In this document: positions 13,053-63,687 of the stretch, piece after piece
Numbering within the stretch: the stretch's first letter is position 1
Layout: every line of letters starts with the position of its first letter
DNA from: Moniliella sp. 'wahieum'
Lineage: Eukaryota
Reading direction: 5' to 3'
Assembly: GCA_003971905.1 (NCBI GenBank)
Contig: RSEE01000054.1
Location: 372,001 to 436,000, forward strand
Length of the DNA: 64,000 nucleotides
The notes under the pieces: generated by a model
What the model was told of the DNA's origin: nothing
The model's input: the letters and a program-made list of their open reading frames with translations, nothing else
Database searches by the model: none
Program-made: the position numbers and the translations under genes

Positions 13053-13665
13053 AGTGTAAAGCATCTCTCTTGCCGGTTTTTTTTCTGGCACGTGCTCCTC
13101 ATCTTTCCTCTTCGTCATTCTCCCCTTTGCATCTCGGGGTCGGTGGGTCGGTCGTTGCCTGTGGTGTGGGACCTGTTGCCCCGGATGCCTCTACGCTGTC
13201 CCATCCATACCCGGGGCGGCCTGCTGCAACGGCACATACGCAACAGCATCAGCATCAGCAACAGGAACAGCAACAGCACCCTAGCGAGCCTTAACGCTTC
13301 GGCATGTCCGGCCTGGCTGCATCATCCGCTCTTCATTCTTCCCCCTTTCCCCCCCCATCTTGCAGACATGTTGTTGCCGTCTACGGCCCTCAAAAATTGG
13401 CGCCCTGCAACTACGCCTCGACCCCGTTTGTCTTGCCATAGCATTTTTTCCTAGCCAGTTCGACCCCGCGAGGTCACCTGGAGAAAGGCTCGCTGTGTGG
13501 GTAGCCAGCAGTAGCTAGCGAGCTAGTTTGTTTGCCCGTGCATCGAGTGCTGTCGGCAACCCCCACCAAACGAAAAACGAAGGAAGCGGCCCGATGCAAA
13601 TCGAACGGGGGCAGTTGTTCCAGTGGAACCACCTGGAGACTAGGGTGGGTTTTTTTTTTTCAGTT

Positions 13666-13689
13666 TCAACGTTCAACGTTCAATATTCA
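13666..13689. repeat. TCA + 4-bp palindrome heptamer array upstream of ARO2
   Basis: TCA ACGT TCA ACGT TCA ATAT TCA. Confidence 0.85.
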
Positions 13690-13872
13690 ATGGACCATTT
13701 CCGCTGGAATGACTGACTCGTGGCGTGTGGAGGAACATTTGTCGAATATCTCCGTCGACGGGCGTGGGCAAGTCGCCCGATCGGGTCAGCACTTGGGCGT
13801 GGAGCGCCACCGGTTTTCTTTGTTCCACCACCGCTTACCCTTTTGCGCCGCGTTGCTGTCGTCTGCCCCAGC

Positions 13873-15168: not shown

Positions 15169-18100
15169 GACGAAGGCCAAACGCCCGCTGTTTCCGTCAA
15201 CTTAAAATGCACTTTTTTACAGAAGTACACGTTCCATCTTAAGAGTTTTAGTGTAGTCTGCACCCTCTGATTCCACGGCTCTACGCGCCCAAGCACCTGC
15301 TTTGAGCATGTGCAATGCAACAGCACCCGACTCACATTCGTAAAGCCCAGCGTCGTCGTGAAAACGTCAATCCCACATGTGTAATCGCTTTCGTGCGCAA
15401 CTGAGCGGGAAGTACAACTGTGTCGTGCTTGGACACCATGCCTGTCCCCACCACTATCACGGGCTCCCGATGACGGATCTGTTAACCTAATGCTACCGAC
15501 ATTGGCGTGCACACCACCGTAGATCTTGCAGCCGAAGATGTTTACTCTCTGACCGATACCCAAGTCGCTGCACGAGGGATACACGACGGTCCTAATCACT
15601 CGATCTGCTTCCTACTGATCACGGGGGCTGCATCTTCGCCTCCTCCAGATCTGACCAAAAGTCATCATTCTCACACAAACCATTGGTGGTGGACAGAGAC
15701 CGGCGGAGCTAGCAACCTCTTCCTGTACGGCCCAACCCCAACACCAATGTGTATATTAGCAGTCCCCCCCGAACATGTACCAGCTTCCTTCGCCTTATTG
15801 AGGTTGTGACGGGGTTGACCCCATGTACACACCCTGACTCCCCCTTCCCCTTCCCCATGCCTGGCACCCCTGCTTGGCAAAAGATGGAGGCAAAACATCA
15901 CAGAAGAGGAGTAGACAACTATGAGTAGAGAACGTGCTATAGTATACCCAAGTGGGATAGGACGTCCCCCCTCTGATCGATCCCCATCTAGTCACTTCAC
16001 TTTCTATATTCTGTCTCACTGAGAGCAGTCCCATTCGTCCCACCCCTTGTTCCATTATCATACGTGTACGTAGCCGTCTTTCTCCCGCCCCCCACCACCT
16101 CTTCATCATCAGTCTTCTCTGATCTGCAACGACAACGACCGCCAGCTTCTACAGTGGTGCACAGGTGTCGAGCTCGTCCAAACGCGCCTTGCCCTACAGC
16201 CCCATCTCTTGACGTACCAGCATCGCCCAGCACAGCCAGCCCGACACATTTCGATCTTCCTGTGGCGCAGAGACCGTCACCACGCCGTCATCAGCTCTCG
16301 CTTCGACATCCGTCGTCGTCCTTCAGCACCGTCCCTTCGTCACCCTCCTCAGGAGTTGATGGGCCCGTCCCCTCTCACTGTATCCGAAACACAACCCCAC
16401 CTCTGGTGTGGAGCGCAAACGCAAGCGCGAGCATGAGGACGAGGACGAGAGCGAAGACGACAATGAAGATGCGGATACGAAGTTTTGTGGATGAATCGAC
16501 ACTAACTCAAAATTGTCAACAAGGTACTGAACCATGTTTGCTTGCCTGAGATAACCGCCTCAGCGCGCCTATGCTGGTGCTGAGAAGCCTCAGGCGCGTT
16601 CCTGCTCCCTCCTACCATTCAAGATGAAAAGGAACGGGCCAGTATCCCCATCAATTTGAGTGACCACTGAAACGCTAACCCTGATCGTGGGAATGTGTAG
16701 CCTCTTACTTCGGCGAGCGAAGGATATGACGAGGATGATGCGTTGGAGGTGCACGCTCCGCCAACACTTTGGTGTCACGCAAGGTCTTGGTCTGGCCAAT
16801 ATGTGATTATTGGCGATGGTGTTCGCGCTCAGCGGTATAAGATCACGAATTGCCAGGGCAAGACCAACCGAGTACGGGGGGAAGTTTCGGCCCTCAGTGA
16901 CATGGTCACCAACTAACAGAGAAGATGAATAGGTTGAGTATAGCGCCGACAAGGCCAGGCGCACCGAGGCGTTGCGTCTTCACACCCAGAGCCTGCATGC
17001 ACAGCCGGCGCCATTGAACACGGCTTGTGTCCGTGGTTCTCTACCAACCGCCGGCGGCTGTGCATTGTGTTGGACAGCAATAGGGCACCTGTGCTCGTGG
17101 ACTACTTTCTCAAACGTCACCTCCACGGCCGTCGCCTCTCCCTGGAATACATTTAGTCAGCATCATGAAACGAACCCTTCAGTTTTTCTCGTCGCCTCGA
17201 TCCATGCGAAACTGCGTCCATATTGGGCACGGACGCTTACCGCAGAGAAGACGTCTTGTTGAACAGCACTTGCGCCCATCCCCGATCCTCCACGCCTGGC
17301 CAGATGATTTATTTCCTTTCCTCTTCGATGGTCCACGTGATCGACAGAGACGAGCCACTTCTCGTGCACAGTTCAGCATGAAGCCAATAGTATCCTCTCC
17401 TTGATGCAATAAACTGTGCGGTATCCCTTCCGACCAAAGCTGGCTTGGTGGGTCGCTCACTCGTCCTCCGTGTTGGTCCGTCGGCATCCATGCGCGCATA
17501 CGCAACGGATCTTATTGTTTGGGTATGATCCCACTCCAAATCGGTACTATAGGGACATAATATAGTACAACGGCAGTTTCCCTCAGAATCTCCCCCTACT
17601 CTCTCTTACGGCACACCTATACCACCCTGTGAACCCATCTTGCCTTCGTCGGTGGTTTGTGCGACTATTGCCATTACCCGACGTCCACACTCACGCTCTC
17701 CATAATACCCCCTCATGGCGACCCCTCAAGAGGACTGCCGAAGACGTGCTCACTCACGGGCAACAACGAACCAAATGCCCTGCAGTTAAACAGAGCCCCA
17801 GGATACGGTGGTCTGCTCCTGCAAAGCTCCCGCCATAATTGATAAAGGCTCTTTATCAACCTCCTACCCCCCCCCTGAGCCTTTTGAAAACCTCTCAGCT
17901 CGTATTGGATGGGGATGTTGCATTACATATGTGCCTCTGTGATGGATTTGTTCTCCTCCTGCGTTACTCCCTTCTCTGTTGGCAATGCCTCCCTCCCCCA
18001 GGTCAGTTCTATGATCATAGTACGGCTTCTCAATGCTGCTGTCGAGGACGACGATGGACACTCCATAATATTGCATGAGCAACGTCCGCATTACCAATGG

Positions 18101-19089
18101 CCAAAGCGCTGCCATCACAACGTGAGATGTTGGCTTTGGGATTGGGACTGTATCCTGGGCGCCACCCGAAGAAGCCATCGCGGCGTCAATGCTCAGAATA
18201 TATCAACAGCAAACCGTTGTCCAGATAGATGAGTGTGTTTTGTTGTCTGCTGTCCTAAGGGGACTTGGGCCTGCTGGCTCCTCGACGGGGAGCAGTTGCA
18301 GCAAGGGGAAGAAGAGGTGGGACAAGGGGGACGGATGGATAAGAGGGAGGATTTCGGTGATGCTAAGGACGGTGGGTTCCGGTTTTGATGACGGGGAAAG
18401 TACGACTATTCTCACAATTCTCACGGTTCTACAGGTCTCATGGCGGCCATGCTGATATTAGGAGCTGTGGCCAGAAGTCGCCCCGATCGCCCCTCAACCC
18501 TTGTATTCGCCGTGCCAGAAAGGGAGGGTAAAGCCCGCCATCACCCGGGAAAGGGGAACATCGCTTACGAGCAATACAACAGCAACACGCCCCCCCCCCG
18601 CGCTCAGTCTCCTTAACAAAAGGGAGTTGAGGATGTTGACCGGTCAACCCCGGCGTTGTTGGAATTTCCCCTCCTGTCTAATCTCTATCCGACTGGTATA
18701 AACGTTGGCAAAGCGAAGCAGACGAAGCAACCGAGACGCCTGCGACTCAAGGCTGCAAAGCTCCGCGGCGCCAAAAGAATATGATCCACTGCGATATCAC
18801 TTGTTCGTATATGTATACTATCCAAATCCACCATCTGCCTCCCGTTCCTATATCTCACGTTTCGTTACTATCACATTAGTTCAAAAAGGGTGCCCGTTTT
18901 CCTTCTCACGCTCTTGGTCCATGTCAGATCCCCCCTGCTCGGATATACGTTCGATATACCCTCTGTTGGACGGGGTAGATACCCTTGGCGCACGGGTCGC
19001 TGCGCTCTGCGCGGGAGGCGGGGCTTTTGAACGTGTGTGGAAGCCTGTTGAGAGGCCTGGGAGACTGGTGCCATTCCGTTTGGCTGAAC

Positions 19090-19420
19090 CCAACGTTGAA
19101 TAACGTATTCGTACGTTGAACGTATACGCGTGGAACGTGTGGAGAGTAGAAAACTGTGGACGCATGCTACTCACACGTGCATGTGATGCATGATGTCACC
19201 CGTGTCACATGACACAGGTCACAATCTCATTGCATTTTCAGGAGAGCCATCAGTGAGTGCATGAGATGCGTGACACTGTGACGGACCGCATGTCACCTGA
19301 CCGGTGACATGCGACATGTGACATGTGACATGTGACAGGTGATCATCGTCAGCGCGTCAGCAATCATGTAATCACTATAGTACCTAGTTACTGGTTACCG
19401 GTTACCAGTTACCGGTTTCG
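19090..19420. repeat. Cluster of TNA + palindrome heptamer arrays
   Basis: (TGTGACA)x3 at 19317-19337; CTAG TTA CTGG TTA CCGG TTA CCAG TTA CCGG at 19384-19415. Confidence 0.9.
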
Positions 19421-20867
19421 CTCAGACCCTCAGACCTCCTTCGACTCATCGATCCATTACACAGTGAGCTGCGACGGCGACCGCCTATATAGGGCCCTAA
19501 GCACTACGCCCCACCCAGTATATAGTGTGTAGTATAGGATCAGTATGGGAGGAAGGATGGGAAGTGACACCAAGTCGGGAGGGTGGACGGGAAATCTGGC
19601 ATATATATATAGTGCACATAGTGCTACATGCTGAAAAGATGAGTGTGACGCGGGACGTCGGATGTGGCTGGCCCCCCTCTGATGAGAGTGACCCGGTGAT
19701 ATCTTCCCGGTTGCCAGTACCGGTTACCCTTGGTCACCACGGTAACCCTTCCATCAATGTGACGTTCAGGGTGTGGACCCCCTCTCTGCTATAGTGCGAC
19801 TCGGGAGCACTCGGCAATCTTATGGATCAGCTGCAAAGCAGCTCTGAAGTCAGACAAGGCGTGTGAAGCATGAAGCTTGAAGGGTGGAGCCACAAAAAAA
19901 ACCTTGAAGAAGCTCATTGAATATTGAAAACGTCTGAAGGGACAAGAGACGGACATCTCATTAGAAATGAGGGAGTTGGAGCGAGTAGTGCAGGGGGTGC
20001 GCAGCCTGCGAGTGCAATTGTTCCTCCCGGATAGGCGAGCGTCACCGATCAATCTGGGGCCGTGCAGGGGAACTGCAGCACTATACTCCTGCACTCTCTT
20101 CTCTCCTCTCGTCCGTGTCAGGCGTCAGGCGTCAGGCCTGCTGAGTGGTCGCCCAATAAAGCATCAGTGCATTAGCATATCTCTCCCTTTGTACGCCATC
20201 GCTTTCCTTCTGTGTCGTTTCATATCATTTGCAGAGCTTATTTTATATATTACGAGGCTCAAAGGATGGAAAAGAAGCACACACGCTTTTGAATAGTGAG
20301 GACACTATGGATATCTGAGTAATCTACAGCACCTATAAAAGCAAAGAACTACCGCATAGCGATGTACAGGCATCTGTGTCACAAATGATCATAATTGATG
20401 CATTGAAGATAAGAAGGGCAGGGAACATGATATAGAGAAAAAGGTAGAGAATCAATGAGATCAATAAGCGCAAGAGAAATTAATTGTGTAGAAGAGATAA
20501 ACCAGATTCGTGTGCGGATGAGAGCACAAGAAAGGGAGAGAGAGATACAATAAACGAAGAGGAAGGAGCAGCGTTAAAAAAAAGACGTCTCCGGTGTGTC
20601 CCACAGTTGAGGGCTATACACAAGATTCGAGGGAGATCATCATGTTGAGACCCGCGGTCCCAGACATAGTAGGCAAAAAGAAACTGTCAACGAATGACTA
20701 AGCTTGCTCCAATTTCCATTCTGCATTCTGTGTCTCTCGCTCTTCCCCTTCCTTTTGCTTCCGTTCTCTGCCATGCCTTCTGTTTCCTTCCACGAACGAA
20801 CTTGCCTTTCCCCTCGGCTTTGACAAGCACCTCATTACCCTATTTCCCCTTTTTGACCGTCGAAGAA

Positions 20868-21023
20868 GCCTCCATGTGTAGACTCTCCACCTGTTCGAAC
20901 CCATGCCTCTTCCAGATGGGGAAGAAGGGTTATATTACCCTAACCACCACCGTTATTGCGATTGCATTGCTCTGCCTTTCCAGAGGTTCACTATCCAAAT
21001 CCTTGGATTTCTGCGGTCTTACA
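20868..21023 (+). mobile_element. Second, diverged copy of the LTR-like terminus
   Basis: Aligns by eye (roughly 70-75% identity) to the reverse complement of 441-599. Shared blocks TGTTCGAACCC, AAGGGTTATAT, GCGATTGCATT, CCAGAGGTTC, CAAATCCTTG, and the same end CGGTCTTACA. Confidence 0.75.
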
Positions 21024-21960
21024 GGAGACTATAGAATTGGTACAAAAAGGACGGGAAATGCAGCAATCACTGACCGGGAAAACGAACAGAGCATAAGGAG
21101 CGGCGTATAAAAGAGCAGGAAGGAAAAGTCGCTGGTATCCCACTAATATTATATAGTGTCCTTTGGGCTAGTGTCACTCCCCTTCCTTCTTCCTCTTCTC
21201 TTCCACAGTCTGGGCCGGAGCCAGCTCCCTTTACTTCCTTCATCCAATGTATAACTGCACTTAGGACATCTTTGTGGGGAACGAGTGTCACGGTCCTCTT
21301 AACTAATCAGGGGATTCTTCTCACCACTCGTCTTCCCGCCGATCCTGTTCTCCCTTCTCCCACCAGTGCATCTTTGGCTTCCCTTGGTACTTGGTCTCAC
21401 TCGTATTCGCCCGACTCTTACAACAAGGGCCATTTTCATGACACCCGTCCCGGCATCACTAGTGACTCCACCCTCTCTCAGACCCCATCATCAAAATGTC
21501 CCTCGAAGCATGAAGTAAACTGAGTACTGAGTGTTGAGTATCTAAGTACTGGGTTGTCGTGTCCCAACACGTTTTAAGCATCGAGCAACGATAAACGGAA
21601 AACGTTAAACCCCAACACAGCTCTCCATTATCCGGGAACGAATGATGCACGTCCCAGCTATTCGCAAAAAAAAACCACATCACAGCAACCGCGCGGCGTG
21701 TCTGTATAATTTCTCTGGGGTTGGTTCTCATGTGTGCCCTCGTGCTCTGGCCATCGCAGCAAAACAACAGAGGGGTCGGAGCAAATCCGTTTATCGTGGC
21801 ATAGAACAAAAGGGATGGACAAGAGGCCGATGTGGAGGCCGAGACGGATTTTATATGAGTGGGTGTGGCGCATTATACACTGTGTTCTGAAGCTATTATG
21901 GCGCTGACTTTCTTGGGAGATATCAGGATCACCGATCACAAATGTTAATGATAGGCGCAT

Positions 21961-22933
21961 GGTGACCGGTGACCGGTGACCGGTGACCTGGGTCCGGGTG
22001 ATACAGTGATGCATTTGGAGAAAGCGCGAAAATCAGGGACACAGTTACCGAATAAGGAGTGATGTTAATGCATAACGCATGGTGGTGCATAGTGGGAAGT
22101 GGTCCCATAGGGTCAAAACACGGCTAGTGGCTGCCTATGTTGGGGAATGGAGGCGATTACTGTCTCGCCGTGATGCATGATGCATGATGCATCATTGATG
22201 CTGGGGTGGCAGCTGGTAACCGGTAACCGCCGGCGTATTGGCCTGTGGTGGATACTTGGGTTCCGCGCTTGGCATATCGCGACACGTCCAGCTATACCGC
22301 TCATGGCTCCAAAGAGACCTTAAGGCCTAATGTCCTAAGGCCTAAGGCTTAGGCCTAATGGCACGCTGTAGGGCCAAACAATCACGTCCTCACATGTTTT
22401 AAATCACACGTGTCACACATGTCACAACGCCTCTTCTTAGAAACCCTCAGACAGAAGGGGTCTTGTTGTTCTGAACACCATATGTCTTTTCTCATCGATA
22501 TCATTTCGCCTCCGGCCTGAGCCTTTGGCATCAGGCCCCCAGGGACCTGACCTCAGGCCTCATCGATATCCACCTCATCGACCTCATCGACCCCATCGAA
22601 TCGGCCTCATCGATCTCATCGAGATCGTCTTCTCTCTTCAGCGCATTCACAAATTGTCTCGGCGTTGTTTGCCCAACCGGAGCTTGAGGGATCAGAAAAG
22701 GGGGATATGACAGGGTGGACAGGGTGGGACTTGCAGCGGGGCCGAGGGGGGCCGAGGAGTGGATACCCCACTCAGAGGTTGTGGAAGCCGATGCATCACT
22801 GATGTGTCAAGTACAACGCTAATAGTAACGTTCGATGGACGTCGGACTTCGAGAGAGCTTAATGCCAAAAGTTGAAGAGGCGCTGAAGCTTTGAAGGTTG
22901 GATCAAGCCTGAAGTCACTAGTCACTAGTCACT
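21961..22933. repeat. Cluster of TNA + palindrome heptamer arrays
   Basis: (GGTGACC)x4 21961-21988; (CATGATG)x2 22176-22189; (GGTAACC)x2 22215-22228; (CCTAAGG)x2 22334-22347; (AGTCACT)x3 22913-22933. Confidence 0.9.
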
Positions 22934-23699
22934 AGTCGACCTTGACTTCATCAAAGACCTTCACGCTCTTGACGTGTCCTGTTCCTACTCAGTATGTCTA
23001 ATTGGTTCTTTCATCCTGTGTGTGGTCCTTATACCCGCGCCTATTATTACTGAAGCGGAGAGTCCACACTACGATTTACTTGAAAGCCTAGGAACCTCTT
23101 TAACTATTTTCAGCACCTCGCCCTGTGCTCCTGCTACGAAGAGATCGCGATCCCTCCGTCAACAGATTCCGGGTGCACAGAGCGCGAAAATGTTTGGGGG
23201 AAAATAATGCAGGACTTTGGTGAAGGGCAGATGCGAGGAAAACAAAACATTAATAAGAGGCAGTCATGTGGCCACACCCCCGTAGAAAATGATGGGTAAT
23301 CCGGTAGGGTAGTCTCCCGGTAACCCTCGGTAAGCCCAAAGCGCCATAATACCGGAAACCTTGTGAACAAACCATGAATCACATCCAGAAATGTATATCA
23401 TCCTTTTACCTCGTCGACAACCCAAACGGCAGTCCTTTCCTCTTCTCCATGGAGGTGCATATATGTGAGGGTGGTGAAGCTGAAGCTTCATGCATGAAGC
23501 TTGCAGCAGAGAGGGTGAATAAGTGTGCCCTAAGGCTTCCCTACCATTAGTAGTTGGACAGTCGCGCTTTTGCGTTGGCTGGTTTGTGAAATGTGAATGG
23601 CCTCGGTCACCTGGGGCCTGACCGGGACCGCAGATGTGGCCAAATCTCCCTCCCTCCCTCCCCCATCCCTTTATGTGGTTCCTTCCATTCAATGTCATA

Positions 23700-24340
23700 A
23701 TATGCAGGCGTTGTTGAATATTCAGCTGAAGCTTCAACTTGAAGCCTGAACCTGAGGCCCATCAGGGCTCAGCGCTGTTGAGGCTCAACGCTCAACGAGC
23801 GCTCAGCTGAGCCTCATGCCTCACGCCTCAGCCTGAGGCCTCAGGCTCCAACAGGCTCCAAGGCCGTTACATGCCGTTGCAGGAGGTTACATGCTACAGG
23901 TGACCGGTGGCTGTTGAACGTTGAACACGTTGAACGTTGAACGTTGAACGTACTTGTGACATGTATGACATGTGACATGATGACAATTGATTGTGATTAT
24001 CACGGTAGTCACCGTGATAAGCTTCTATGACCCCTGTACCACATATACAAAAGCGTTAACTACTCTTTGAGAGACCAGCTTGGACAAGATGAGACTGTTC
24101 CTGGAAGTAATTTATTGGTGAAACCCGAGACCTTAAGGCTTTTCAACGTTGAACGTATAGTAATGAGAACGTTGACGATGTTGAGAACATTGACTCCGCC
24201 TCACACAGCCCTCAACGTCCTCAACCCTCGGCCTCAACTCTCAGAACTCAATCTCAACCCTCAGGCCTCAAGGCCTTAACGTTCAACCGTTCAACTTGAA
24301 CCCTCAACCCTCTCAGGCCTCAGGCCTTAACCCTCAATCG
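23700..24340. repeat. Cluster of TNA + palindrome heptamer arrays
   Basis: (GTTGAAC)x5 with one 2-bp interruption at 23913-23949; many TGA AGCT, TCA GGCC, TGA CATG and TCA ACGT units. Confidence 0.85.
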
Positions 24341-24348
24341 TTGACACA

Positions 24349-24457
24349 TTATAAGACGAGGAAGTGCTATTGGATGATATTTTTAGCGCCTTGGCAGCCT
24401 TTTCGCTTGTGCTTCTGTTGGGGGGGTAGTGCTAGGCTTCACCTGCTCGTTATAAGA
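24349..24457. mobile_element. Tiny MITE-like insertion (93 bp) with 8-bp TSD
   Basis: TTATAAGA at 24349-24356 and 24450-24457 flank 24357-24449. The insert ends are imperfect inverted repeats (CGAGGAAGTG vs reverse complement CGAGCAGGTG, 8/10). Confidence 0.45.
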
Positions 24458-26431
24458 TTTTTTAGTTTATAGTACGGATGGCACCATACTGCATCGGTCG
24501 CTGTTACCCTGTATGGCTGCCATACGTGTGGGCGGAAGCCGTTGTGCACACACCAATATGAGAGTTTCTTTACATATAAAAAGGGGTAAACGTTTAGGAC
24601 GTTTAGGGGCTTAGATGCAATTGGCAGAGAGACAGCGTAGCAGCAAGTCGGTATCGCTCCAATCTCGATAATTATATCTCATCTGCATTATTTTAGTCGC
24701 CACCAAGTCCAGACTCGCTGGTGGTGGAACCTTCACAACTGAACTACCAATCGGACGCGGAATGGGGTGGCGGCAATGGGGCTATAATAAAATGTATGGT
24801 GTTTCCATCAGGCCGGCACCAGGTGTGGCATGTGAGCGACGAACCATTTGAATAGCAGACGAGATCTTAGATCTTACTGCATAAAATCACTAGTGACTTC
24901 TGCACTTTTCCCCCCAGGTCTTACTGGTAGAATATATGGTGTTGTTTGCCGGTAGCCGCGCTTGTGCATCATTGACGAACTTTTGCTCATGTCATCATGT
25001 CATATGTCAGGCTCAGGCGCATCCCCGCTGAGACTCTTTTTCAGAGAAGGCTACTGTAGAACGATAGTGCGTTATCGTTTAGTACCGCTTGTGGTCGGTT
25101 CGACAAAATAGTTCGGACGGCCCAAAATCAAGAATAAGTGTTAGCCACAATAAGGCACGGTTCAAGAACCGAAGTAGTCATGATCCCTGTCATGTTCCCT
25201 GTCAACGGAGGTAGGTTCGGCAGGATCGCCCTTCTCCTGGTTTATGCTGTCTTTCGGTGCCTTGTTTGATGTCAAACGGACATGTACTTGTAATTCGGTT
25301 CAGGGAAATGCGACAGAAAATCGGCATACTGGCAATGGTTATAATGATTCGATGACGCGAATGAGGTATGGGTATAGAACAGAGCCATTCTACTATTATT
25401 TTTATTCAAGTTCTCTCGCTCTCGCTTCACATTTGCAGCAGTGCTCCAGCTCCATCTGAGCAACATCGAGACTCTCGTTCGGCACCGCTTCTCACTTGGG
25501 ACTCTTCGAGTCGTTCGGATACATCATTGTTGTCTCTCGATTCCAAACAGGGCATCATTGATGCATGGATATAGGAGGAGGACCACTGGGCCTACGGCCC
25601 GCCCAGCTTTTTGGTGCTTTGTCGCCACCTTAGCCACCGTTCCCCCTTCGCCACCGTAGCCACCGTTCCCCCGTCGCCAACACCGACATCGAAATAATAT
25701 CACGGATACTTGCTGGCTGCGGGTGGCGTGAAATGTGGTACATTCATTGCATGTTTTCCCCCTATTCACGGTATACTGCTGGCCATAGGCCATTCTTACG
25801 GCGTGTATAGTCGTATGTGTCTTTGGCTTTTCGATGCAAAGTGTGTATATCGAAATTGTTTTGCTTTCAGGTGTCCCCCACGACACGCTGAGCGGGGGGA
25901 GGCTCTGGCACATATGTAACCTCTTTCTATTTCGTGCAAACATATACGATTCGGACCTGTAGAGAGAGCCGGTCTGGTACACGGCACTGGGTATATACTC
26001 ACAGTGCCACTCAGTGTACACTGGTCCTGAAAAGCAACTTCCCGCTTCAACGTTCAACGTAAACGCGTTACGCGTTAACATTCAACCTGCAAAGGACCTT
26101 CCACGTACAAGCCGGGGTATCTGTGGCGCATGTGGGGGAAAGGAGGGGAGCGTGCACAGGTTACTAGTTACAAGCTGTTACATGTTACTGCTATCGTATA
26201 GTTTTGTGTGCGGACGCGTGTGACATGTGACATGCGACGCGTGTGATTGTGACGATCGGCGATGTGACCGACACCATGCATGATGCACTGACTCCACCGG
26301 TGACCGGAGAGAAGTTTATTAATGTGTAACGTTTAACCGGGTAAGCTTGAGCCAGGACGGCAACAGGCGGGAACCAGTATTTCGCAACGGGTAATGGTTA
26401 CCGGTTAAGCTTTAAGTAACACCCGTTTTCA

Positions 26432-26478
26432 GGTGGCTGGTGGCTGGTGGCTGGTGGCTGGTGGCTGGTGGCTGGTGG
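26432..26478. repeat. (GGTGGCT)x6+ 7-bp microsatellite
   Basis: Six full units plus GGTGG. Confidence 0.95.
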
Positions 26479-27759
26479 ACGTGGGCCACCCAGGAACAGG
26501 CTTGAAGCTTGAAGCTTCAATATTCAGTCCATCTACCTCCCTTTTGGGGGTGTTGGGATGGTCAATAGCCACCACGAGCAACCCATTGCCAGTGCCAAGA
26601 AGCTTCAAGCCTTCGAGCTTCGGCGGTGGAGACAGCTACGATACGCGATACACAGACACCCTGTGCCCGCCATGCGTGGGATGTATGACCTGTGTTTACA
26701 TATGTTCTTCTTCATTTTTGGCTGGCACAGGCCAGGGGCCCCATCACCACTTGAGACAAAACCACCCCTCCAAAACAAACATAGGGACCCCTATACTGTT
26801 CCTACCTGGTGCCTACAGGTGCCTGTAGTGCTGGAGCCGAGCAACTAACCGCGTACGGGTTGCACGTTGCCTGCGGGTCCGGGAGCCCTAGCCGTGTCTA
26901 TTGGAGTTCTGGGCTTGGCGGCGCTTTCCTCTGTGGACGGGTCCGCAGACCCTACTGCCCTACTGCAGTCACCGCGAAGGGCCACACCCTGCCACTCCAT
27001 GTAAAAGGACGAAAAACAACCACCCAGTTAACTATTGGCAACACAATGGACGTTACGTGTTCCTCTATGAAACAGGCTGTCATGCAGTCATGTATTCGAA
27101 CTCAAAGCTTAAGCGCTTGGGGCTTCAACGTGAACGTACGTGCCACAGAGAAGAAGTCTGTGGCATGCTCTGCGAGCGCTCACCCGCTCATCCGCTCAGC
27201 GCTGAGGCTCAGCGCTCATGCGCTCATGGGCCCAGCTTTGGAAACTTCAACCGCTTCAACACATCATACATCATGCGTCGTCATGCATCACCTAAACCAT
27301 TCAATATTCCACGTTCGACCTATGCTCTCCGTATCCATATCCATTCCCCTTCGCCTTAGGCCTTACGGATGCGCCGGTCCATCAGTGGCTGCTCCTAATA
27401 GTGATCAGCGTCTAGAAACAACAGTGGCACTTATCGAAATCATTAACCGATGTGAGTGACATCTATCCTATATCTTACCCCCATTGGCGCAGAGAAAACG
27501 TGAATGTGTATCGTCAGCGTGTCAGCGAACTTATGAGCGCAGGACCATCTGTGGCATCAAACTGGTTTAGCGGCGCCGGTAGCCCAAACCCGGATCCATT
27601 TCCGATGCATTCCTTCCAATATTCCGTCCAAGATGACAGGAATATTCTCTGGCCTCTGTAGCTCATACCTACAATGCAATGTACCATCAACTGCCTGCTC
27701 TCTGGTCTTCTCTACACCATCAATAACCAAATGCTGATGGGTGGCAAAAGAAGAAACGT

Positions 27760-28720
27760 CAGCGCGTCAGCGTCAAGCTTCAAGTCGATTCGCCCCAATA
27801 GTTACTAGGTATTCATAGTCGCTATAGTCAGTCACTAGTCACTAGTCACATCGGTCCCGCTGGTCACACTAGTCACTTCTTGATTAGACTAGTCGCTCGC
27901 TAGGATCTAGTCAGCACTCGTACGTACTCAGTACTCGATACTCAGTGAGGTACTCAGGTGCTCGAGAGTACTCAGGCCTCAGGCCTCAGGACTCAGGTAC
28001 TCAGCAACCAAGCTTCTTCAAGCTTCAAGCTTCAAGCTTTAAGCCCAAAACCACTAGGTTCTAGACTCTAGTCACTTAAGTTACTATTTACTAGTCATTT
28101 GCCAAAGCGACCAAACTCGATCTCGTCGATAGTCACTCTAGTCACTAGTCACTTGCTTGCAGTCACATGTCACAGCGACCTGTCTTCCATCTGGAGCGAG
28201 TGGATGGAGTCACAGTGGGGCTAGGCGGAACCCGCGGAGCCCCGGGTTAAATACCGATAAAACCACATCAACATAGGAAACGCGAGAAGTATAAGAAGCT
28301 GGGAGATAAATAGTAAGAGAAGTTGAGAATGTTGAGAGAAGCTGATGCGCTGATGTCGATGATGTCGATGATGGTCTATTGCAGTAACATGTAACAGTCA
28401 ATGTTCATGTTTTTAACGTGATAGCCTAACCGCTTGACGCTACAAAGCCTGCAGATGGTAGCCTCTGGTAGGCCGTCGTATAGGCTGGGGGGAGGGGGGG
28501 GGGGACTGATGCACTGATGAGACGCGGCGAGCTGCGCGGCGTATGCAAAACCAAGGCGCTATTAGCTACTACTTTCTAGTAGCTGTAGTTACTGATGGTT
28601 ACTAGTTGCTAGTGACCGGTGACCTTCTCTAACTTTTCACTAGTGAGACTGTGACATGTGTGACTAGTGACTGCATTATTAGCACGTTACGCGTTACGCG
28701 TTAGGCCTTAGGCCGGCCGG
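27760..28720. repeat. Cluster of TNA + palindrome heptamer arrays
   Basis: AGTCACT units 27830-27878 and 28131-28153; (CCTCAGG)x2 27977-27990; (CTTCAAG)x3 28016-28036; TTA CGCG TTA CGCG TTA GGCC TTA GGCC at 28687-28714. Confidence 0.9.
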
Positions 28721-30145
28721 CTGAGGTGTCTCCGAGCCCTGTCGGAAAATAGGCGGCATGGTTCCCGGTACGCTTAGACCCTTAGGCTTCAGGAAAGGCC
28801 TTAGGTATCTTGGCATAGAGAAACGCAGTGTCACATTGCCGCCGGCACGGCGTCACGCGCCACTGCGCCACCACCCAATACCCAGAAAAAGGTCGTCTTC
28901 TGGATGGCTTTTTTCAAGCTTTTGATGACCCTTGCCTCGGGGGTTCTGCGGTCACGCTCAAGGCTCACCGGTCGACAGTCATCCGCCACCAGTCACACGG
29001 TCACGGGCTACGCATCCTACATTGCATGTCACATTGTAGCAGATCCCAGACTAGTCGCGCCTATCCCACACCTCCATCATGTCACAGGGATCACATATGT
29101 TACACTCGGCGTCACATGCGTCACATGTCACAGCCATCCTGTCGTCACCACGTTACTATTTGCTAACTGCTTGCCCTGTCCATGTCACTATCACTAGTCA
29201 CTGTCACACTGTTGCACGAAGCTGCTGGTACGCTCGGTGGGCGGTGGTGCACTGGAAACTCGAGGGAACATAGTGAACATGGGAACGTACTCGAACGAAC
29301 CGTCGTGATGTTCTGCCTGGGCACAGCAGTGCGTCAGTGACCGAGCGATCCGCCTACCGCTGAGGCTCAGCGGTGATGCTCAACTCTCAATCTCACGCCT
29401 CCAACCTTCAAGCTGCAAGCTTCCCGGCCAACATTTCGCCCCAAGCGCACCCCTTTCGACATACTACGTAGCGGGAATACAAAGCCGTAAGCGGCAACAG
29501 GCAAGTACGGGTAAGGGGTACGCGCCACGCCCTGCACCGCAACGCCCCAGGCCGCTCAGTCTGAGCACTCAGTCAGTACCGGAAGTACTCGACCTGAGGC
29601 CTGTGGCCAAAGTGCTAACCGGTGCCACCATCCACAACACTCTCCCCTGCCCTGGCCGGCACACAACACACAATCCAGCACACGCCGCGCTGTCACCAAG
29701 TCACAAGTCACATGTGAGCCGGCGAGGCGCCTGAAGCTTGAAGGCAGGCCCACGTCCCTGCCCTCCCAGTCGCCCTACCTGACCACTCGGCACCACAGTA
29801 CCTCCTTCCTCGTTCCCACCACCACCACCACCTCCTCTCTTACTTCGCTCCTCGCTCCTCCACTCGACCCTACACTCCCGTTCGAATTGGCTCCCGCCAG
29901 CGATTGGCTACAGCAGAACGCAGCGGCACCTTATACACCCACCGCTGCCTTTCTCGCTCCCTTGTCACTCGTTGGGGTCTGCTCTTCGTCTCCCTTTCTT
30001 TCACTCTACCCTTGCCGCTGTTTCGACTCGTCTCGTCTCGTCCCTACCCGACCCGTCTCTTCTTCTCTCGTCCCGTCCCGGCCCGTTCCGTCCCTTCTTG
30101 TCTTATCTCGTACTTTCTTGTTTCCCATTTTTCATTTTGTTCGCG

Positions 30146-52137: not shown

Positions 52138-54177
52138 GGTGCTGTGTGGGAGAGGAATAAGGGGGGGGGAGGGGTGACGTGTGGGCGGGGTGCGGGGCGC
52201 GCGGGATGGGGCGGGAGGGGTTTTATGCAGATGGCTCCAGCACCAGGCGCGCAGCTGGAGGGGACGAAGGTGCGGGCGAGTGTAGTGGGGATGGGGGGAG
52301 AAAGGGCGCGGACAGACGGTGGGCGTGCATGGCGGGAGGCGAGCCTTCGTTGGCACAGATGTGATCACACTGTTCTGGAATCGTCCAAGTGCCGCAGCGC
52401 TGGGGATGGGAAGCAGCCGCGTGCAAATCCTGTCCCCAAGACACGCGCCACGCCGGCCGCAATAGCGACGGAGCACGGCGTGTGTGTTCCTGCGAGCGCT
52501 GTGCCTTCTCCGCAGCTGCCCAGTCATTAATCATTAACCCGCATGATCGGCTTAGTCCGGCTAAACGTTTAACGAGAATCGAGCTAATCGAGCTAATCTG
52601 TGATCAGTACGCGGGCACTGCCGGGCACTTCCCCGCCAGCCGCGCCCCCACACGCGCCGAGCCAGCAGCAAAAATGTCCGCCCCACAGCCGCCGTGCTGG
52701 GCGATGTTGTCCCCGACCCCGCACGCACACCACTGGCCCCGTGCGGCGAGGCGCGGACGCGGGGCAACTGCGAGCGCACCCTGGTACCTGCCTAGTCCCC
52801 ACTGCTCGTGTGTGTCACGCAGCGGGCGGTGATATCGTGATGCTGGGGGCCCCGCACCAGCGCACTGTCCTGCGCGCCGTATCGCCACGCCTGCCCAGGC
52901 GGCTGGGCCCAGGCTGGCCTGGCGCCAAGGCAGGCACCAGGCCAGTACCAGGACTAGTAACCTAGTAACCATGCCTGCCCGTCGGCCCGTCTCCGTGTGA
53001 GCAGCAGCAGTCGCACAGCACCGTCGCCACCCTCGTCCGCACACGAACGAAGCACCTAGCAAAAGGACAGTATATAGAAGGGCATTGCCCTGTATAGCGC
53101 CCGAGCCCAGAGCCTCCCAGTCCCTTCCCCCCACATCCATCCTCTAGAGAGCCGAGGATATATATGGCCCACCGGTTGGACCACATCCAATTGGGCCCAT
53201 CTCGGCGGCAACCGTGGCTTGATGGGTGTTGGTTATATTATGTGGGCACAGAAGCGCAAGTCGCCTAGCGCACACACAGGTGAAACTCGAGTAGACTCCG
53301 ATGGTTGCAACCGGGTGCCCAGGCACGCATTGGTAAGCATGTTGGCTGTTTCGTGTCCGCCCTTCTTTTTGTATCCAAGTTTACCTGGTATGTTTGGACA
53401 CCTATGCTTTCTCTGTATAGGTATGCCAAAAAGCCAACAGGTCCCGAGCACAATCAGGTACAAAACAGGATCCACGTGTCTGGGGTAACTAGTGTGGAGT
53501 CGCGTGAATCATTAAGAAGGATCGACTTGGCCGCGGGCCCTTTTCACCGTCTCTCGCCCTCGCTCCCTTAGCTTGTTTTGGGTTGAAACCTCCCCCACAA
53601 TGCATTTAGGAGAACTGTGTTGCAACCTGATTTTGTGCAACTGAGTGAGCGGCAGGTCTCCTGCCGCCTTCTCCCGAGTTGAAGCATATCGGTGTGAGAC
53701 ATATATAGAAACGTTGTATATGGAAGCAGCGCTGTAGGGTAGTCTCGCCCGTCGGCGGGGGCTCAACCCGCCCTTCCCCAGATGCCGGGGAAGCCTATTA
53801 GGTGGGTCACATGTCCGGTCATCAAAAGCTTTTATATACGTCTCTGCTGAGATGATGCGTGGCGGATATAACCGTCGGTTTTCGCACCATAACTTGCATC
53901 CAAACCCAGCTGGACACACATCCAGTAGCATATTATACGCCAGAGCAAGATGGTTCTGTCTATATCGCACTTCGGCTTCATTGAAAGAGACGAGATAAAA
54001 TGAATTTGACTTGGGTTTTTTTATCTGTTTTTTTGGTGGAGAGGGTGGATGGAAACATGGACGGGTGTGAGAGACAAGAGATGTTCAGGGATCATGGATC
54101 ATGGATCATAGAAGATATGATGAGGTTGAGAACAACCAATCCAGGGCGATGACTGAAAAGAGATGACGGACGCCCAT

Positions 54178-63379: not shown

Positions 63380-63600
63380 CGTTGGTGAGAAATAGCGTGG
63401 TGGTGGTAGAGGCTGAGAAGACGGCAGCGAGCACATGGACGTGGCGCCGGCGAGCTGGCCACGTTGCTCCAACGAACAGATTGACTGGCCTTGTGCGGCT
63501 GGGGTTATGTAATACAGGAAACGTTCAATTTTCCAGTGGCAGGTGCCTTCCACGTGTGTCATCATCGATCATGGATCATAGAGATCATCCGTTAGCCGGG

Positions 63601-63687
63601 TCATGCGTCACGCGTCACACTCATCATGCACCATGCGATGAGCCAGAAGGATGGCATGATCATCGATCATGCATCATGCATCATGCG
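63601..63687. repeat. TCA + 4-bp palindrome heptamer arrays upstream of SEC13
   Basis: TCA TGCG TCA CGCG TCA at 63601-63617; TCA TCGA TCA TGCA TCA TGCA TCA TGCG at 63660-63687. Confidence 0.85.

What the first reader, a model, noticed from the sequence alone, without database searches (positions are those of the whole stretch)
19090..29210. A generative 7-bp grammar in non-coding DNA: [T-N-A triplet + 4-bp palindrome]n
Seen: dozens of short tandem arrays that look like unrelated microsatellites share one rule, a TGA/TCA/TAA/TTA triplet alternating with a self-complementary tetramer at period 7. Tetramers observed: CATG (19317), CCGG (21961, 22215), TGCA (22176), GGCC (22334, 27977), CTAG (22913), ACGT (23913), AGCT (26503, 28016), ATAT (26520), CGCG (28685), GCGC (about 27199), GTAC (about 21525), TCGA (about 22560), and TTAA outside the desert (52524). 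Ordinary slippage does not explain why so many different units obey the same constraint. Inference: an enzymatic process writes these units. Candidates: (a) excision footprints of cut-and-paste elements with a 3-bp TNA TSD that leave 2 nt of each inverted end, which is automatically palindromic (analogous to the Tc1 TA-CA-TG-TA footprint; PIF/Harbinger elements have TWA TSDs); (b) 7-bp duplication of XY-TNA-Y'X' palindromic targets; (c) selection for a DNA-binding or chromatin factor. I cannot confirm novelty. I recall TCA-containing 7-bp repeats in Ustilago maydis intergenic DNA, which should be compared.
Basis: partly seen in the sequence, partly recalled or inferred. Interest (0 to 1): 0.85.

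Follow-up and report, generated by a model that had tools for sequence, protein, structure and literature searches.

The report
Rule-bound palindromic 7-bp repeats in fungus
A 10-kb gene-free stretch of a smut-related fungal genome is littered with short 7-bp repeats that all follow one rule (T-any-A plus a 4-bp palindrome), which looks like the trace of a specific cut-and-copy DNA process and not of ordinary slippage or chance.

Summary
In 19001-29300, T-N-A + 4-bp palindrome + T-N-A with the same N occurs 57 times, against 0.5 expected. No other triplet, spacer length or 3-nt loop shows this. Of 30 perfect period-7 arrays there, 23 have a T-N-A-centred odd-palindrome unit. 13 of 16 palindromic tetramers occur in the desert and 15 of 16 in the window.

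The window comes from an Ustilaginomycotina fungus. The desert is non-coding and has no transposon, RNA gene or long repeat.

The tetramer is usually the reverse complement plus a copy of the two bases flanking one T-N-A. So it is written by copying, not recognised by a protein. Runs of 12-13 nt are the commonest.

My best reading, held at moderate-to-low confidence, is a self-propagating break-and-templated-repair process at T-N-A, which is the known target of PIF/Harbinger-type (PHIS) transposases.

- Option (b), a 7-bp duplication of a palindromic target, fits partly.
- Option (c), selection, is unsupported.

My searches found no published description. Only 64 kb could be examined.

The parts
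19090..29210 (.). Array-rich, gene-free domain at about 50% G+C. It holds 75 T-N-A/palindrome/T-N-A cores and 136 T-N-A-centred odd-palindromic 7-mers. Two array-poor blocks interrupt it, at about 20.1-21.5 kb and 24.35-25.95 kb.
19313..19337 (.). TGTGACA unit (TGA+CATG), 25-nt perfect run inside a degenerate 5.6-copy array that also starts with a CCGG unit
19393..19406 (.). GGTTACC x2.0
21519..21532 (.). ACTGAGT x2.0 (TGA+GTAC)
21961..21988 (.). GGTGACC x4.0, the longest conforming array
22171..22192 (.). TGA+TGCA x3.1
22215..22229 (.). GGTAACC x2.1
22334..22348 (.). CCTAAGG x2.1, next to further TAA/TTA+GGCC cores at 22321 and 22349
22913..22937 (.). AGTCACT x3.6 (TCA+CTAG)
23481..23501 (.). 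In-phase tract with different tetramers: TGA-AGCT-TCA-TGCA-TGA-AGCT
23913..23951 (.). GTTGAAC arrays (TGA+ACGT), two perfect runs of 14 and 25 nt separated by a 2-nt insertion
23966..23979 (.). TGA+CATG x2.0
24312..24327 (.). CCTCAGG x2.3
24862..24876 (.). TCTTAGA x2.1 (TTA+GATC)
26046..26088 (.). Six in-phase units: TCA-ACGT x2, then a CGCG unit, TTA-CGCG, and decayed ACAT and ACCT units
26219..26234 (.). TGTGACA x2.3
26500..26526 (.). TGA-AGCT x2 switching in phase to TCA-ATAT-TCA
27830..27849 (.). AGTCACT x2.9
27971..27990 (.). CCTCAGG x2.9
28016..28039 (.). CTTCAAG x3.4 (TCA+AGCT)
28138..28153 (.). AGTCACT x2.3
28685..28714 (.). TTA-CGCG x2.7 running in phase into TTA-GGCC x2.0
13665..13691 (.). 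Outside the desert: TCA-ACGT x2.7 switching to TCA-ATAT. It lies about 190 bp upstream of the ATG that I read at 13874 in front of the chorismate synthase ORFs.
52524..52537 (.). Outside the desert: TCA+TTAA x2.0
63561..63686 (.). Outside the desert, at the window's end: TCA-TCGA, CGTCACG x2.0 and TCA-TGCA x3.0 arrays. There are 5 cores in the 814-nt non-ORF segment 63187-64000.

Best explanation
These are products of a local, self-propagating cut-and-copy mutational process. They are not selected sites, chance or plain microsatellite slippage.

The rule the data give is ab-TNA -> ab-TNA-b'a'-ab-TNA. Next to a T-N-A, 7 nt are added. They consist of the reverse complement of the two flanking bases, then a copy of those bases, then the T-N-A again. 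The tetramer is therefore a palindrome by construction. Any of the 16 tetramers can arise. A new T-N-A is created each time, so further events, or slippage once 12 nt or more repeat, extend an array.
- An event that copies the inner flank repeats the same tetramer.
- An event that copies the outer flank starts a new tetramer in phase.

The most likely biochemistry is inferred, not shown. A DDE-type transposase or nuclease targets T-N-A, which is the known target of PIF/Harbinger-superfamily (PHIS) enzymes. It nicks at a fixed distance, 2 nt 5' of the T, which would correspond to a 7-bp stagger. Repair synthesis re-copies ab-TNA. It then switches onto the displaced same-sense strand, because T-N-A pairs with itself at its outer bases. 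It copies the 2 nt to that strand's end, and the product is sealed as a +7 insertion.

Point mutation then erodes the units. The arrays probably have no function. They do seed stop triplets in all frames and dense 6-bp palindromes.
For: Shown:
1. Specificity. Among 2-bp stems around any 3-nt loop, only T-N-A is enriched: 136 vs 40.8. With a run of period 7 of at least 12 nt it is 34 vs 0.02. G-N-A, which I recall as the stable DNA triloop, gives 33 vs 39 and 0 repeated.
2. Fixed ruler. Same-N T-N-A pairs peak at spacer 4 (89 vs 10.2). Spacers 0 and 2 sit at background (13 vs 10.7; 10 vs 9.8).
3. The tetramer is templated by the flank. Of 43 abTNA repeats at period 7, 34 have the spacer rc(ab). 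Of 47 TNAab repeats, 39 do. Of 36 same-N singleton cores, 29 match the periodic dinucleotide on at least one side: 13 on the right only, 9 on the left only, 7 on both. Chance is 1/16 per side.
4. Runs of 12 and 13 nt are the modal classes, with 12 and 10 of 55 runs. Runs start at X, Y or T in 47 of 55 cases.
5. Palindromic tetramers are needed. P-TNA-P occurs 30 times vs 0.15 expected. Non-palindromic W-TNA-W occurs 6 times vs 2.8.
6. Tracts with different palindromic tetramers stay in phase.
7. Neighbouring N are the same in 67, complementary in 21 and otherwise different in 5 of 93 pairs.
8. Decay is visible. Of 32 same-N non-palindromic spacers, 23 are one pair away from a palindrome.

From papers:
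- PHIS transposons duplicate T-W-A or C|TNA|G, and the latter group occurs in basidiomycetes (PMC4482050).
- mPing/Pong cut the duplication with a 3-nt 5' overhang and accept any middle base (PMC4561436).
Against: - No enzyme, transposase gene or transposon copy lies in the 64 kb.
- The nick position and the strand switch are pure inference.
- A self-pairing argument would also allow A-N-T, G-N-C and C-N-G, which are not used. The T-N-A specificity must therefore come wholly from the unseen enzyme.
- Known PHIS enzymes cut with a 3-nt stagger and repair precisely, not at 7 nt.
- Cores with complementary N mostly lack matching flanks: 11 of 17 match on neither side. The model predicts a match.
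- Six of 55 runs are only 10-11 nt long.
- T-N-A pairs at spacers 5 and 6 are about 3-fold enriched without palindromic spacers.
- 7 of 30 period-7 arrays in the desert do not conform, including the longest, GGTGGCT x6.7.
- No strand polarity was found: 27 vs 16, p=0.13.
- Everything rests on one 64-kb window. No second genome or population data were available.
Confidence: 0.35

Rival explanations
1. Repeated 7-bp target-site duplications. A transposase with a 7-bp stagger prefers odd-palindromic XY-TNA-Y'X' sites. Each insertion followed by clean excision leaves a tandem copy of the 7-mer.
For: The unit is a T-N-A-centred odd palindrome: 136 vs about 41 expected, with arms of 6 or more in 19 vs 0.7. 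Four arrays are exact whole multiples in the palindromic phase, at 19393, 21519, 21961 and 23913. From recall, several DDE enzymes with an odd stagger have symmetric targets centred on T-N-A. From a paper, the NuwaII target C|TNA|G is such a site.
Against: A real 7-bp duplication gives runs of at least 14 nt, but 28 of 55 runs are 10-13 nt. Uniform decay cannot explain that while the 10-nt cores stay intact. This is my estimate. A protein cannot demand that XY and Y'X' be complementary for 13-15 different XY. Independent half-site recognition would give mostly non-palindromic W-TNA-W, yet only 6 are seen against 30 palindromic. In-phase tracts with different tetramers break the odd palindrome but keep the palindromic tetramer. 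No element with 7-bp duplications is present in the window. One search tested only 3-nt flanks.
Confidence: 0.15
2. No dedicated enzyme is involved. Quasi-palindromic heptamers that arise by chance expand because looped-out units fold into mini-hairpins that escape repair. Template switching at quasi-palindromes keeps them symmetric and flips N.
For: The units are self-complementary apart from N. Isolated odd-palindromic 7-mers are also in excess, with 65 isolated against about 41 expected for all. Complementary N in 21 of 93 pairs, against only 5 other pairs, fits copying from the opposite strand. Local clustering of orientation is modest: 22 runs vs 28.6, P=0.04. Once 12 nt or more repeat, slippage can extend an array.
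Against: Hairpin stability predicts G-N-A loops (recalled) or any complementary inner pair. Only T-N-A is used: A-N-T 41 vs 40.2, G-N-C 52 vs 41.4, C-N-G 39 vs 42.2, G-N-A 33 vs 39.0. Periods 5 and 9 with palindromic spacers are not enriched. Chance gives far too few proto-arrays. About 10 five-mer repeats at period 7 are expected of any kind, against 307 seen. Inverted copies W-TNA-rc(W) with non-palindromic W are absent: 1 vs 2.4. There is no general excess of 10-bp palindromes apart from T...A ones: 7 others vs about 6.8.
Confidence: 0.15
3. Excision footprints of cut-and-paste elements with a 3-bp T-N-A duplication that leave two terminal nucleotides of each inverted end.
For: T-N-A is the duplication made by PHIS elements, including a group found in basidiomycetes. 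The 10-nt core T-N-A + 4 + T-N-A is what such a footprint would look like. Tracts with different tetramers would follow from successive visits. GGCC, the footprint expected from elements that start with GG, is among the commonest tetramers at 12 of 75.
Against: 13 tetramers occur in the desert, seven of them with 7-12 cores each. The tetramer matches host flanks in 29 of 36 singletons. PIF/Pong elements excise precisely without terminal nucleotides, and when repair fails both duplications stay adjacent. Adjacent T-N-A pairs are not enriched here: 13 vs 10.7. No such element is present in the window.
Confidence: 0.07
4. The arrays are selected functional DNA. They could be binding-site clusters for dimeric factors, or non-B-form (dyad-symmetric) DNA of a regional centromere lying in this G+C trough.
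For: The domain is a 10-kb gene-free G+C trough between housekeeping genes. In Malassezia, of the same subphylum, centromeres map to G+C troughs (PMC7025860, passages). Cores are better kept than their flanks. Density is 7.3 per kb in the desert against 0.65 per kb in other non-ORF DNA.
Against: No base-specific half-site is shared apart from T and A, and 13-15 different tetramers occur. A structural role should favour perfect palindromes, yet same-N pairs outnumber complementary-N pairs 67 to 21. Arrays also sit in ordinary intergenic DNA, for example upstream of chorismate synthase. Units are visibly decaying. Kinetochore binding cannot be tested here.
Confidence: 0.1
5. An assembly or sequencing artefact.
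For: None. It is listed only because reads cannot be inspected.
Against: The pattern is confined to non-coding DNA and is rule-bound. It is embedded in unique sequence and shows graded mutational decay. I know of no error mode that writes T-N-A plus palindromes.
Confidence: 0.02

Closest known systems
Palindromic excision footprints of hairpin-forming transposons (Ac/Ds type) and P nucleotides of V(D)J joints
   Same: Short palindromes of arbitrary sequence are made by copying the nucleotides next to a break, and they sit between short direct repeats. PMC4561436 states that Ac/Ds footprints are palindromic sequences from flanking DNA. Here the 2-nt spacer is the reverse complement of the adjoining repeat's first two bases in 34 of 43 cases.
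   Different: The palindromic addition appears on one side only. The mirror product, spacer TN', occurs once against 34. Direct repeats are 5-7 nt at a fixed period of 7, not 8-bp duplications. The inner pair is T..A, whereas the usual hAT target (recalled) would give A..T. No element is present.
PHIS (PIF/Harbinger, NuwaII) transposon target sites
   Same: T-N-A with any middle base is cut. The target can be an odd palindrome, C|TNA|G. The group is present in basidiomycetes (PMC4482050; PMC4561436).
   Different: These elements make a 3-bp duplication, excise precisely and leave no arrays. Their flanking preference is base-specific (C...G). Here all flanking dinucleotides occur and the period is 7.
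Ordinary microsatellites and short tandem repeats made by replication slippage
   Same: Head-to-tail copies, low copy number, degenerate edges, confined to non-coding DNA.
   Different: The unit sequence is constrained by a two-symmetry rule. Period 7 is over-represented in the region (30 of 46 arrays), while periods 5 and 6 are not (8 of 98; 7 of 64). Partial copies of 1.7-1.9 units are the modal class.
Quasi-palindrome template-switch mutagenesis (recalled from the literature, not read here)
   Same: Copying from the wrong strand makes or perfects short inverted repeats, and it could flip N to its complement.
   Different: That process has no sequence specificity and no fixed length. It does not give direct repeats at a fixed period.
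'10-bp repeats' of Ustilago maydis proposed as transposon footprints
   Same: Small repeats scattered in the intergenic DNA of a related fungus with few transposons, interpreted as footprints (PMC4081816, passages). The core here is also 10 nt.
   Different: Their sequence is unknown to me. The source papers are not held. The only 10-bp repeat spelled out in the passages read is a GA-rich one in U. hordei, which does not fit this grammar.

Membership tests
Slippage microsatellite | Tandem head-to-tail copies of a short unit | tested here: met
   23 conforming perfect arrays of 2.0-4.0 copies in the desert; TRF rows
Slippage microsatellite | Unit sequence unconstrained; array length a smooth function of slippage | tested here: not met
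   23 of 30 units obey XY-TNA-Y'X', where roughly 3% would by my calculation (7 rotations x 1/256). The modal run is 12-13 nt, less than 2 copies.
PHIS (PIF/Harbinger/NuwaII) excision footprint | 3-bp T-N-A (or T-W-A) duplication flanking the scar | tested here: met
   T-N-A recurs on both sides of the tetramer: 75 cores vs 2.2 expected
PHIS (PIF/Harbinger/NuwaII) excision footprint | Scar made of the element's terminal nucleotides (GG...CC for most NuwaII) | tested here: not met
   GGCC accounts for 12 of 75 cores and 13 tetramers are used. The tetramer matches host flanks. PIF/Pong leave no terminal nucleotides.
PHIS (PIF/Harbinger/NuwaII) excision footprint | Element copies with inverted ends and a T-N-A duplication in the genome | tested here: inconclusive
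   None in the 64-kb window. Of 41 candidate pairs, 6 had T-N-A flanks; 5 of those are array-to-array matches and 1 is a G+C-rich pair. No transposase domain was found. The rest of the genome was not available.
hAT/Ac-type hairpin footprint | Palindromic nucleotides copied from the flank at the break | tested here: met
   The spacer equals the reverse complement of the adjoining dinucleotide in 34 of 43 and 39 of 47 cases
hAT/Ac-type hairpin footprint | Hairpins at both flanks, so palindromic additions on either side; 8-bp duplications | tested here: not met
   The mirror product occurs once against 34. T-N-A followed by its own complement as a 6-mer is not enriched (TGATCA 3 vs 3.6; TCATGA 2 vs 3.6). 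The repeat period is 7.
7-bp target-site duplication (P, Dada or other superfamilies; lengths recalled) | Exact tandem duplication of the 7-bp target, giving a run of at least 14 nt | tested here: inconclusive
   27 of 55 runs are at least 14 nt and 28 are shorter
7-bp target-site duplication (P, Dada or other superfamilies; lengths recalled) | Target preference set by protein contacts (base-specific, half-sites independent) | tested here: not met
   Complementarity holds without base identity. P-TNA-P is seen 30 times, non-palindromic W-TNA-W 6 times.
Regional centromere of Ustilaginomycotina (Malassezia type) | Gene-free chromosomal G+C trough | tested here: met
   G+C is 0.47-0.55 in 19-29 kb against 0.53-0.76 elsewhere. 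No domains and flat codon-position G+C. Whether it is the chromosome's minimum cannot be told.
Regional centromere of Ustilaginomycotina (Malassezia type) | Kinetochore/CENP-A binding with H3 depletion; one per chromosome; 12-bp AT-rich motif | not testable with these tools
   Needs ChIP and the whole chromosome. The motif's sequence was not in the passages read.
Transcription-factor binding-site cluster | Conserved base-specific half-sites | tested here: not met
   Only T and A are fixed, and 15 of 16 tetramers are used in the window. There is no extended consensus outside the unit.

The most novel reading that the evidence does not exclude
A previously undescribed DNA 'writer'. An enzyme-defined, self-propagating process adds 7 nt at T-N-A sites: the reverse complement of the two flanking bases, those bases again, and the T-N-A. 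It thereby generates a whole family of palindromic heptamer micro-arrays. It may be driven by an active or domesticated PIF/Harbinger-type nuclease, and it is concentrated in a G+C trough that may be a centromere. This would be a new class of templated mutagenesis that builds non-coding DNA.
Probability: 0.25. Interest if true: 0.85.

Novelty: new variant of a known kind. Interest (0 to 1): 0.72.

Why it matters
If the rule reflects a dedicated process, it shows that part of a fungal genome's 'junk' is written by a defined cut-and-copy reaction whose product re-creates its own target. That would be a simple generative mechanism for non-coding DNA.

It would give a sequence signature for tracking the activity of a nuclease or transposase even in genomes that carry almost no transposon copies. 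This is a long-standing puzzle in smut fungi, whose streamlined genomes are suspected of having purged their elements (PMC4081816).

The arrays also place stop triplets in all three frames and pack 6-bp palindromes into a candidate centromere. That bears on how gene deserts stay ORF-free, and on the proposed link between dyad symmetry and centromeres (recalled).

The claim can be tested directly with population or mutation-accumulation data.

Tried and rejected
- Chance or composition. Rejected by Markov models of order 1, 3 and 5.
- Coding or RNA origin. The desert has no Pfam domain (17 ORFs scanned; 15 more in 14.5-18.5 kb). Codon-position G+C is flat. There is no period 3, no Rfam family and no tRNA.
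- A longer diverged satellite or transposon copies. No repeat longer than 32 nt was found, and no TIR pair with T-N-A flanks apart from the arrays themselves.
- A 3-bp staggered cut with fill-in. Adjacent T-N-A pairs are not enriched.
- Hairpins at the T-N-A end. Neither the predicted 6-mers nor the TN' spacer are enriched.
- Inverted duplication around T-N-A. W-TNA-rc(W) occurs once vs 2.4 expected.
- Stable mini-hairpin loops. G-N-A is not used.
- Strand polarity of the one-sided products. Not significant.
- An extended nick-site consensus outside the unit. None found beyond a weak C-G preference just before the T.
- Comparison with other genomes. The only DNA collection open held bacteria and archaea. 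Their flanks hold almost no other cores: the median is 0, and the maximum of 9 is in an AT-rich locus. This is a control, not a relative.
- No fungal DNA, reads or population data could be reached.
- Literature. They included six 14-nt array strings searched as text (one unrelated hit). None gave a description of the grammar.
- Laurie et al. 2012 and 2013 are not held.
- A search of the supplements of PMC4081816 for the 10-bp repeats found nothing. Files 3 and 13-15 were not searched.

Full report
**The window**

The sequence is eukaryotic.
- Kinesin motor pieces lie in several ORFs on the minus strand at 4.2-9.6 kb, which implies introns.
- Other genes are ribosomal protein L19e (11.7-12.4 kb), chorismate synthase (13.9-15.1 kb), a Zn2Cys6 protein (from about 29.5 kb), RRP14, two sugar transporters, an F-box protein and dynactin.
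- The dynactin fragment is closest to unnamed contigs (83%). Among named proteins it is closest to Tilletiaria anomala (54%), Violaceomyces and Ceraceosorus.
- The kinesin tail matches Ustilaginomycotina at 48% or less.

So this is a divergent Ustilaginomycotina fungus with no close named relative in the protein set.

Genic DNA has 0.53-0.76 G+C and a period-3 signal. The stretch 19-29 kb has 0.47-0.55 G+C and no period-3 signal. No Pfam domain was found between 15.2 and 29.5 kb. ORFs in the desert have flat codon-position G+C, 0.44-0.59 at position 3 against 0.70-0.73 in two genes. There is no Rfam family, no tRNA, no repeat longer than 32 nt and no transposase.

Yes.
- Perfect period-7 arrays of at least two copies number 46 in the window, and 30 start in 19000-29300. 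Periods 5 and 6 show no such concentration (8 of 98; 7 of 64).
- Of the 30, 23 have a unit that is an odd palindrome, XY-T-N-A-Y'X'. Every palindromic unit has T and A as its inner pair. Outside the region 4 of 16 conform.
Expected values are 0.5 (order-1 model), 1.3 (order 3, maximum 6) and 11.1 (order 5, maximum 21 of 200).
- The other triplets give 1, 1 and 0. Palindromic spacers of 2 or 6 nt are at background.
- The window holds 93 cores in 71 clusters, using 15 of 16 palindromic tetramers. The desert holds 75 cores and 13 tetramers.
The TCGA array near 22560 has period 9.

**Anatomy**

The pattern has two symmetry centres per period, the N and the middle of the tetramer.

- Hexamers. Six-bp palindromes of the form A-NNNN-T occur 143 times against 36 expected. 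Those with other outer pairs are at background (39/38.8, 33/36.6, 33/36.0). A T lies two bases upstream of 100 of the 143, and an A two bases downstream of 97. Hexamers without either are not in excess, by my estimate.
- Odd palindromes. Those centred on T-N-A total 136 against about 41 expected, and 65 stand alone.
- Loops. Among all sixteen 3-nt 'loops' between complementary dinucleotides only T-N-A is enriched. G-N-A, which I recall as the stable DNA triloop, is not.
- Spacing. Same-N T-N-A pairs peak sharply at spacer 4 (89 vs 10.2) and at spacer 11 (46). Spacers 5 and 6 show a weaker 3-fold excess and look like insertion/deletion variants. Spacers 0 and 2 show nothing.
- The central base. 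Neighbouring N are identical in 67, complementary in 21 and otherwise different in 5 of 93 pairs. C or G makes up about three quarters.

**The informative details**

1. Run lengths at period 7 are 10 (4 runs), 11 (2), 12 (12), 13 (10), 14 (7), 15 (5), 16 (3) and 18-28 (12). About half the runs are shorter than two full copies. Runs begin at X, Y or T in 47 of 55 cases and end after A, Y' or X' in 41 of 55.
2. For 36 same-N singleton cores, the two bases outside match the periodic expectation on the right only in 13, on the left only in 9, on both sides in 7 and on neither in 7. Chance is 1/16 per side.
3. Put differently, where a 5-mer abTNA repeats at period 7, the 2-nt spacer is rc(ab) in 34 of 43 cases. 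It is the mirror alternative TN' in 1 case.
4. Arrays need a palindromic tetramer. P-TNA-P occurs 30 times vs 0.15 expected and non-palindromic W-TNA-W 6 times vs 2.8. Inverted W-TNA-rc(W) is absent, at 1 vs 2.4.
5. Tracts with different palindromic tetramers run in phase and share T-N-A, for example AGCT/TGCA/AGCT, CGCG/CGCG/GGCC/GGCC and ACGT/ACGT/ATAT. The desert has 16 tracts of at least 3 units. Shuffled sequences have 0-2.
6. Of 32 same-N non-palindromic spacers, 23 are one pair away from a palindrome, so units decay by point mutation.
7. Mismatch rises with distance from the tetramer centre: roughly 6% per site in the tetramer, 18% at the outer T and A, and 30% at the outer dinucleotides. 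This is my estimate. Uniform decay of 14-nt duplications cannot give that. Either the short forms are primary products or the core is protected.

**Where the arrays lie**

- Density is 7.3 cores per kb in the desert, 0.65 in other non-ORF-like DNA and 0.12 in ORF-like DNA.
- The desert is a mosaic with two array-poor blocks, 20-21 kb and 25-26 kb.
- Arrays also lie about 190 bp upstream of the ATG I read at 13874 in front of the chorismate synthase ORFs, and in an intergenic stretch at 63.55-63.69 kb.
- Orientation (purine or pyrimidine N) clusters weakly: 22 runs vs 28.6, P=0.04.

**What this excludes**

- Chance, coding sequence, RNA genes and a decayed long satellite are out.
- Protein recognition cannot impose complementarity of XY and Y'X' for 13-15 different dinucleotides. 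Independent half-sites would give mostly mixed sites. The palindrome must therefore come from copying or base pairing.
- Generic hairpin-driven slippage fails on specificity, because only T-N-A and only period 7 are used.
- Hairpins formed at a T-N-A end predict 6-mers and spacers that are not enriched.
- A 3-nt stagger with fill-in predicts adjacent T-N-A pairs, which are not enriched.
- Footprints built from transposon ends fail on tetramer diversity and on flank templating. They also conflict with what is published. PIF/Pong elements excise precisely through 3-nt 5' overhangs of the duplication, accept any middle base, and leave no terminal nucleotides (PMC4561436, passages). NuwaII elements, with target C|TNA|G and present in two basidiomycetes, mostly start with GG (PMC4482050, abstract passages and section 8).

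**Most likely mechanism**

The data are summarised by one operation: ab-TNA becomes ab-TNA-b'a'-ab-TNA, or its mirror image. This explains several features at once:
- The tetramer is palindromic by construction, and any tetramer can arise.
- The 12-nt product is modal.
- A new T-N-A is created, so the process feeds itself.
- Using the inner flank repeats the same tetramer, and using the outer flank starts a new one in phase.

What performs the operation is inferred. T-N-A is the signature target of PHIS/IS5-type DDE enzymes. From recall, several DDE enzymes with an odd stagger also have symmetric targets centred on T-N-A.

A fixed nick 2 nt 5' of the T (a 7-bp stagger) would fit. It would be followed by strand-displacement synthesis of ab-TNA, and then by a switch onto the displaced strand through the self-pairing T and A. 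Run-off after two bases and sealing would give exactly +7 nt. A switch one base earlier would give the complementary N.

I put 0.35 on this class of explanation, meaning an enzyme-defined break plus flank-templated repair, extended by slippage.

Its weak points:
- No enzyme has been seen.
- Known PHIS enzymes cut at 3 nt and repair precisely.
- Cores with complementary N mostly lack matching flanks: 11 of 17 match on neither side.
- Six runs are only 10-11 nt long.
- Spacers 5 and 6 show an unexplained excess.
- Seven period-7 arrays in the desert do not conform, including the longest, GGTGGCT x6.7.
- There is no strand polarity (27 vs 16, p=0.13).
- There is no consensus outside the unit.

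**Rivals**

- A 7-bp target duplication at palindromic hot spots: 0.15.
- Enzyme-free hairpin slippage with template switching: 0.15.
- Selected or centromeric DNA: 0.10.
- Footprints made of transposon ends: 0.07.
- Artefact: 0.02.
- The remainder is left for something not considered.

**Control in other genomes**

The only open DNA collection holds bacteria and archaea. The up to 5 kb on each side of these arrays hold a median of 0 other cores. The maximum is 9, in an AT-rich Vibrio locus. A single such array therefore does not bring the multi-tetramer grammar with it.

No fungal DNA could be fetched. Genome-wide and between-strain tests remain undone.

**Known or new?**

None of my ten literature searches found a description of this rule.

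The nearest statement is that U. maydis carries numerous small 10-bp repeats proposed as footprints of past transposon activity (PMC4081816, passages). Their sequence is not given there, and the cited papers are not held. Supplements of PMC4081816 that I could not search (files 3, 13-15) may bear on this.

Other papers were seen only as passages:
- PMC4824034: tandem-repeat content of smut genomes, 11% in Pseudozyma flocculosa.
- PMC8120014.
- PMC10288648: not relevant.
- PMC6643885: no occurrence of my terms.
- PMC7025860: Malassezia centromeres at G+C troughs.

I class the finding as a new variant of known kinds, namely short tandem repeats and templated break-repair scars. I give about one chance in four that it marks a distinct, undescribed writing process.

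Noticed in passing
window 15200-29500: About 14 kb without any recognisable gene, between chorismate synthase and a Zn2Cys6 gene. The right 10 kb form a G+C trough (0.47-0.55). In Malassezia, of the same subphylum, centromeres map to such troughs, so this is a centromere candidate.
   Followed up: partly
window 26432-26478: The longest period-7 array of the desert, GGTGGCT x6.7, does not follow the T-N-A/palindrome rule. Six other non-conforming period-7 arrays start at 20117, 20717, 21348, 23783, 24299 and 27261. At least two of them (20117, 23783) have tetramers one base pair away from a palindrome.
   Followed up: partly
window 20100-21500 and 24350-25950: Two array-poor, more AT-rich blocks interrupt the array-rich domain (3 and 2 odd-palindromic 7-mers per kb, against 10-22 elsewhere). 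They have no domain, no codon bias and no similarity to each other. Their nature is unknown.
   Followed up: partly
window 13665-13691: A conforming array (TCA-ACGT x2.7, then TCA-ATAT) sits about 190 bp upstream of the ATG that I read at 13874 in front of the chorismate synthase ORFs, in the intergenic region upstream of that gene.
   Followed up: partly
window 63550-63690: A second dense patch of conforming arrays lies at the very end of the window (5 cores in the 814-nt non-ORF segment 63187-64000). Another array-rich domain may begin here.
   Followed up: no
window 4269-4804: A 267-bp tandem duplication (2.0 copies, 94% identical) lies inside the long ORF that carries the end of the kinesin motor domain.
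   Followed up: no
window 22561-22627, 28343-28373, 22404-22426: Period-9 arrays contain TCA or TGA with non-palindromic or 6-bp near-palindromic spacers. Same-N T-N-A pairs at spacers 5 and 6 are about 3-fold enriched. They look like insertion/deletion variants of the 7-bp units, but this is not shown.
   Followed up: partly
whole desert: Because 7 is not a multiple of 3, three consecutive TGA or TAA units put a stop triplet in all three frames of one strand. TCA and TTA units do the same on the other strand. The arrays therefore keep the region ORF-free as a side effect.
   Followed up: no
loci L001-L122 (genome contigs): GGTNACC x3 or longer arrays occur in at least 122 bacterial loci, many of them Streptomyces, and several metagenome bins have two or three hits. 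One short locus (L087) holds 34 consecutive cores. Why this heptamer recurs in bacteria was not examined.
   Followed up: no
window 28488-28506: A G-rich run (about 17 G with one A) lies inside the desert, next to TGA-containing period-8 repeats.
   Followed up: no
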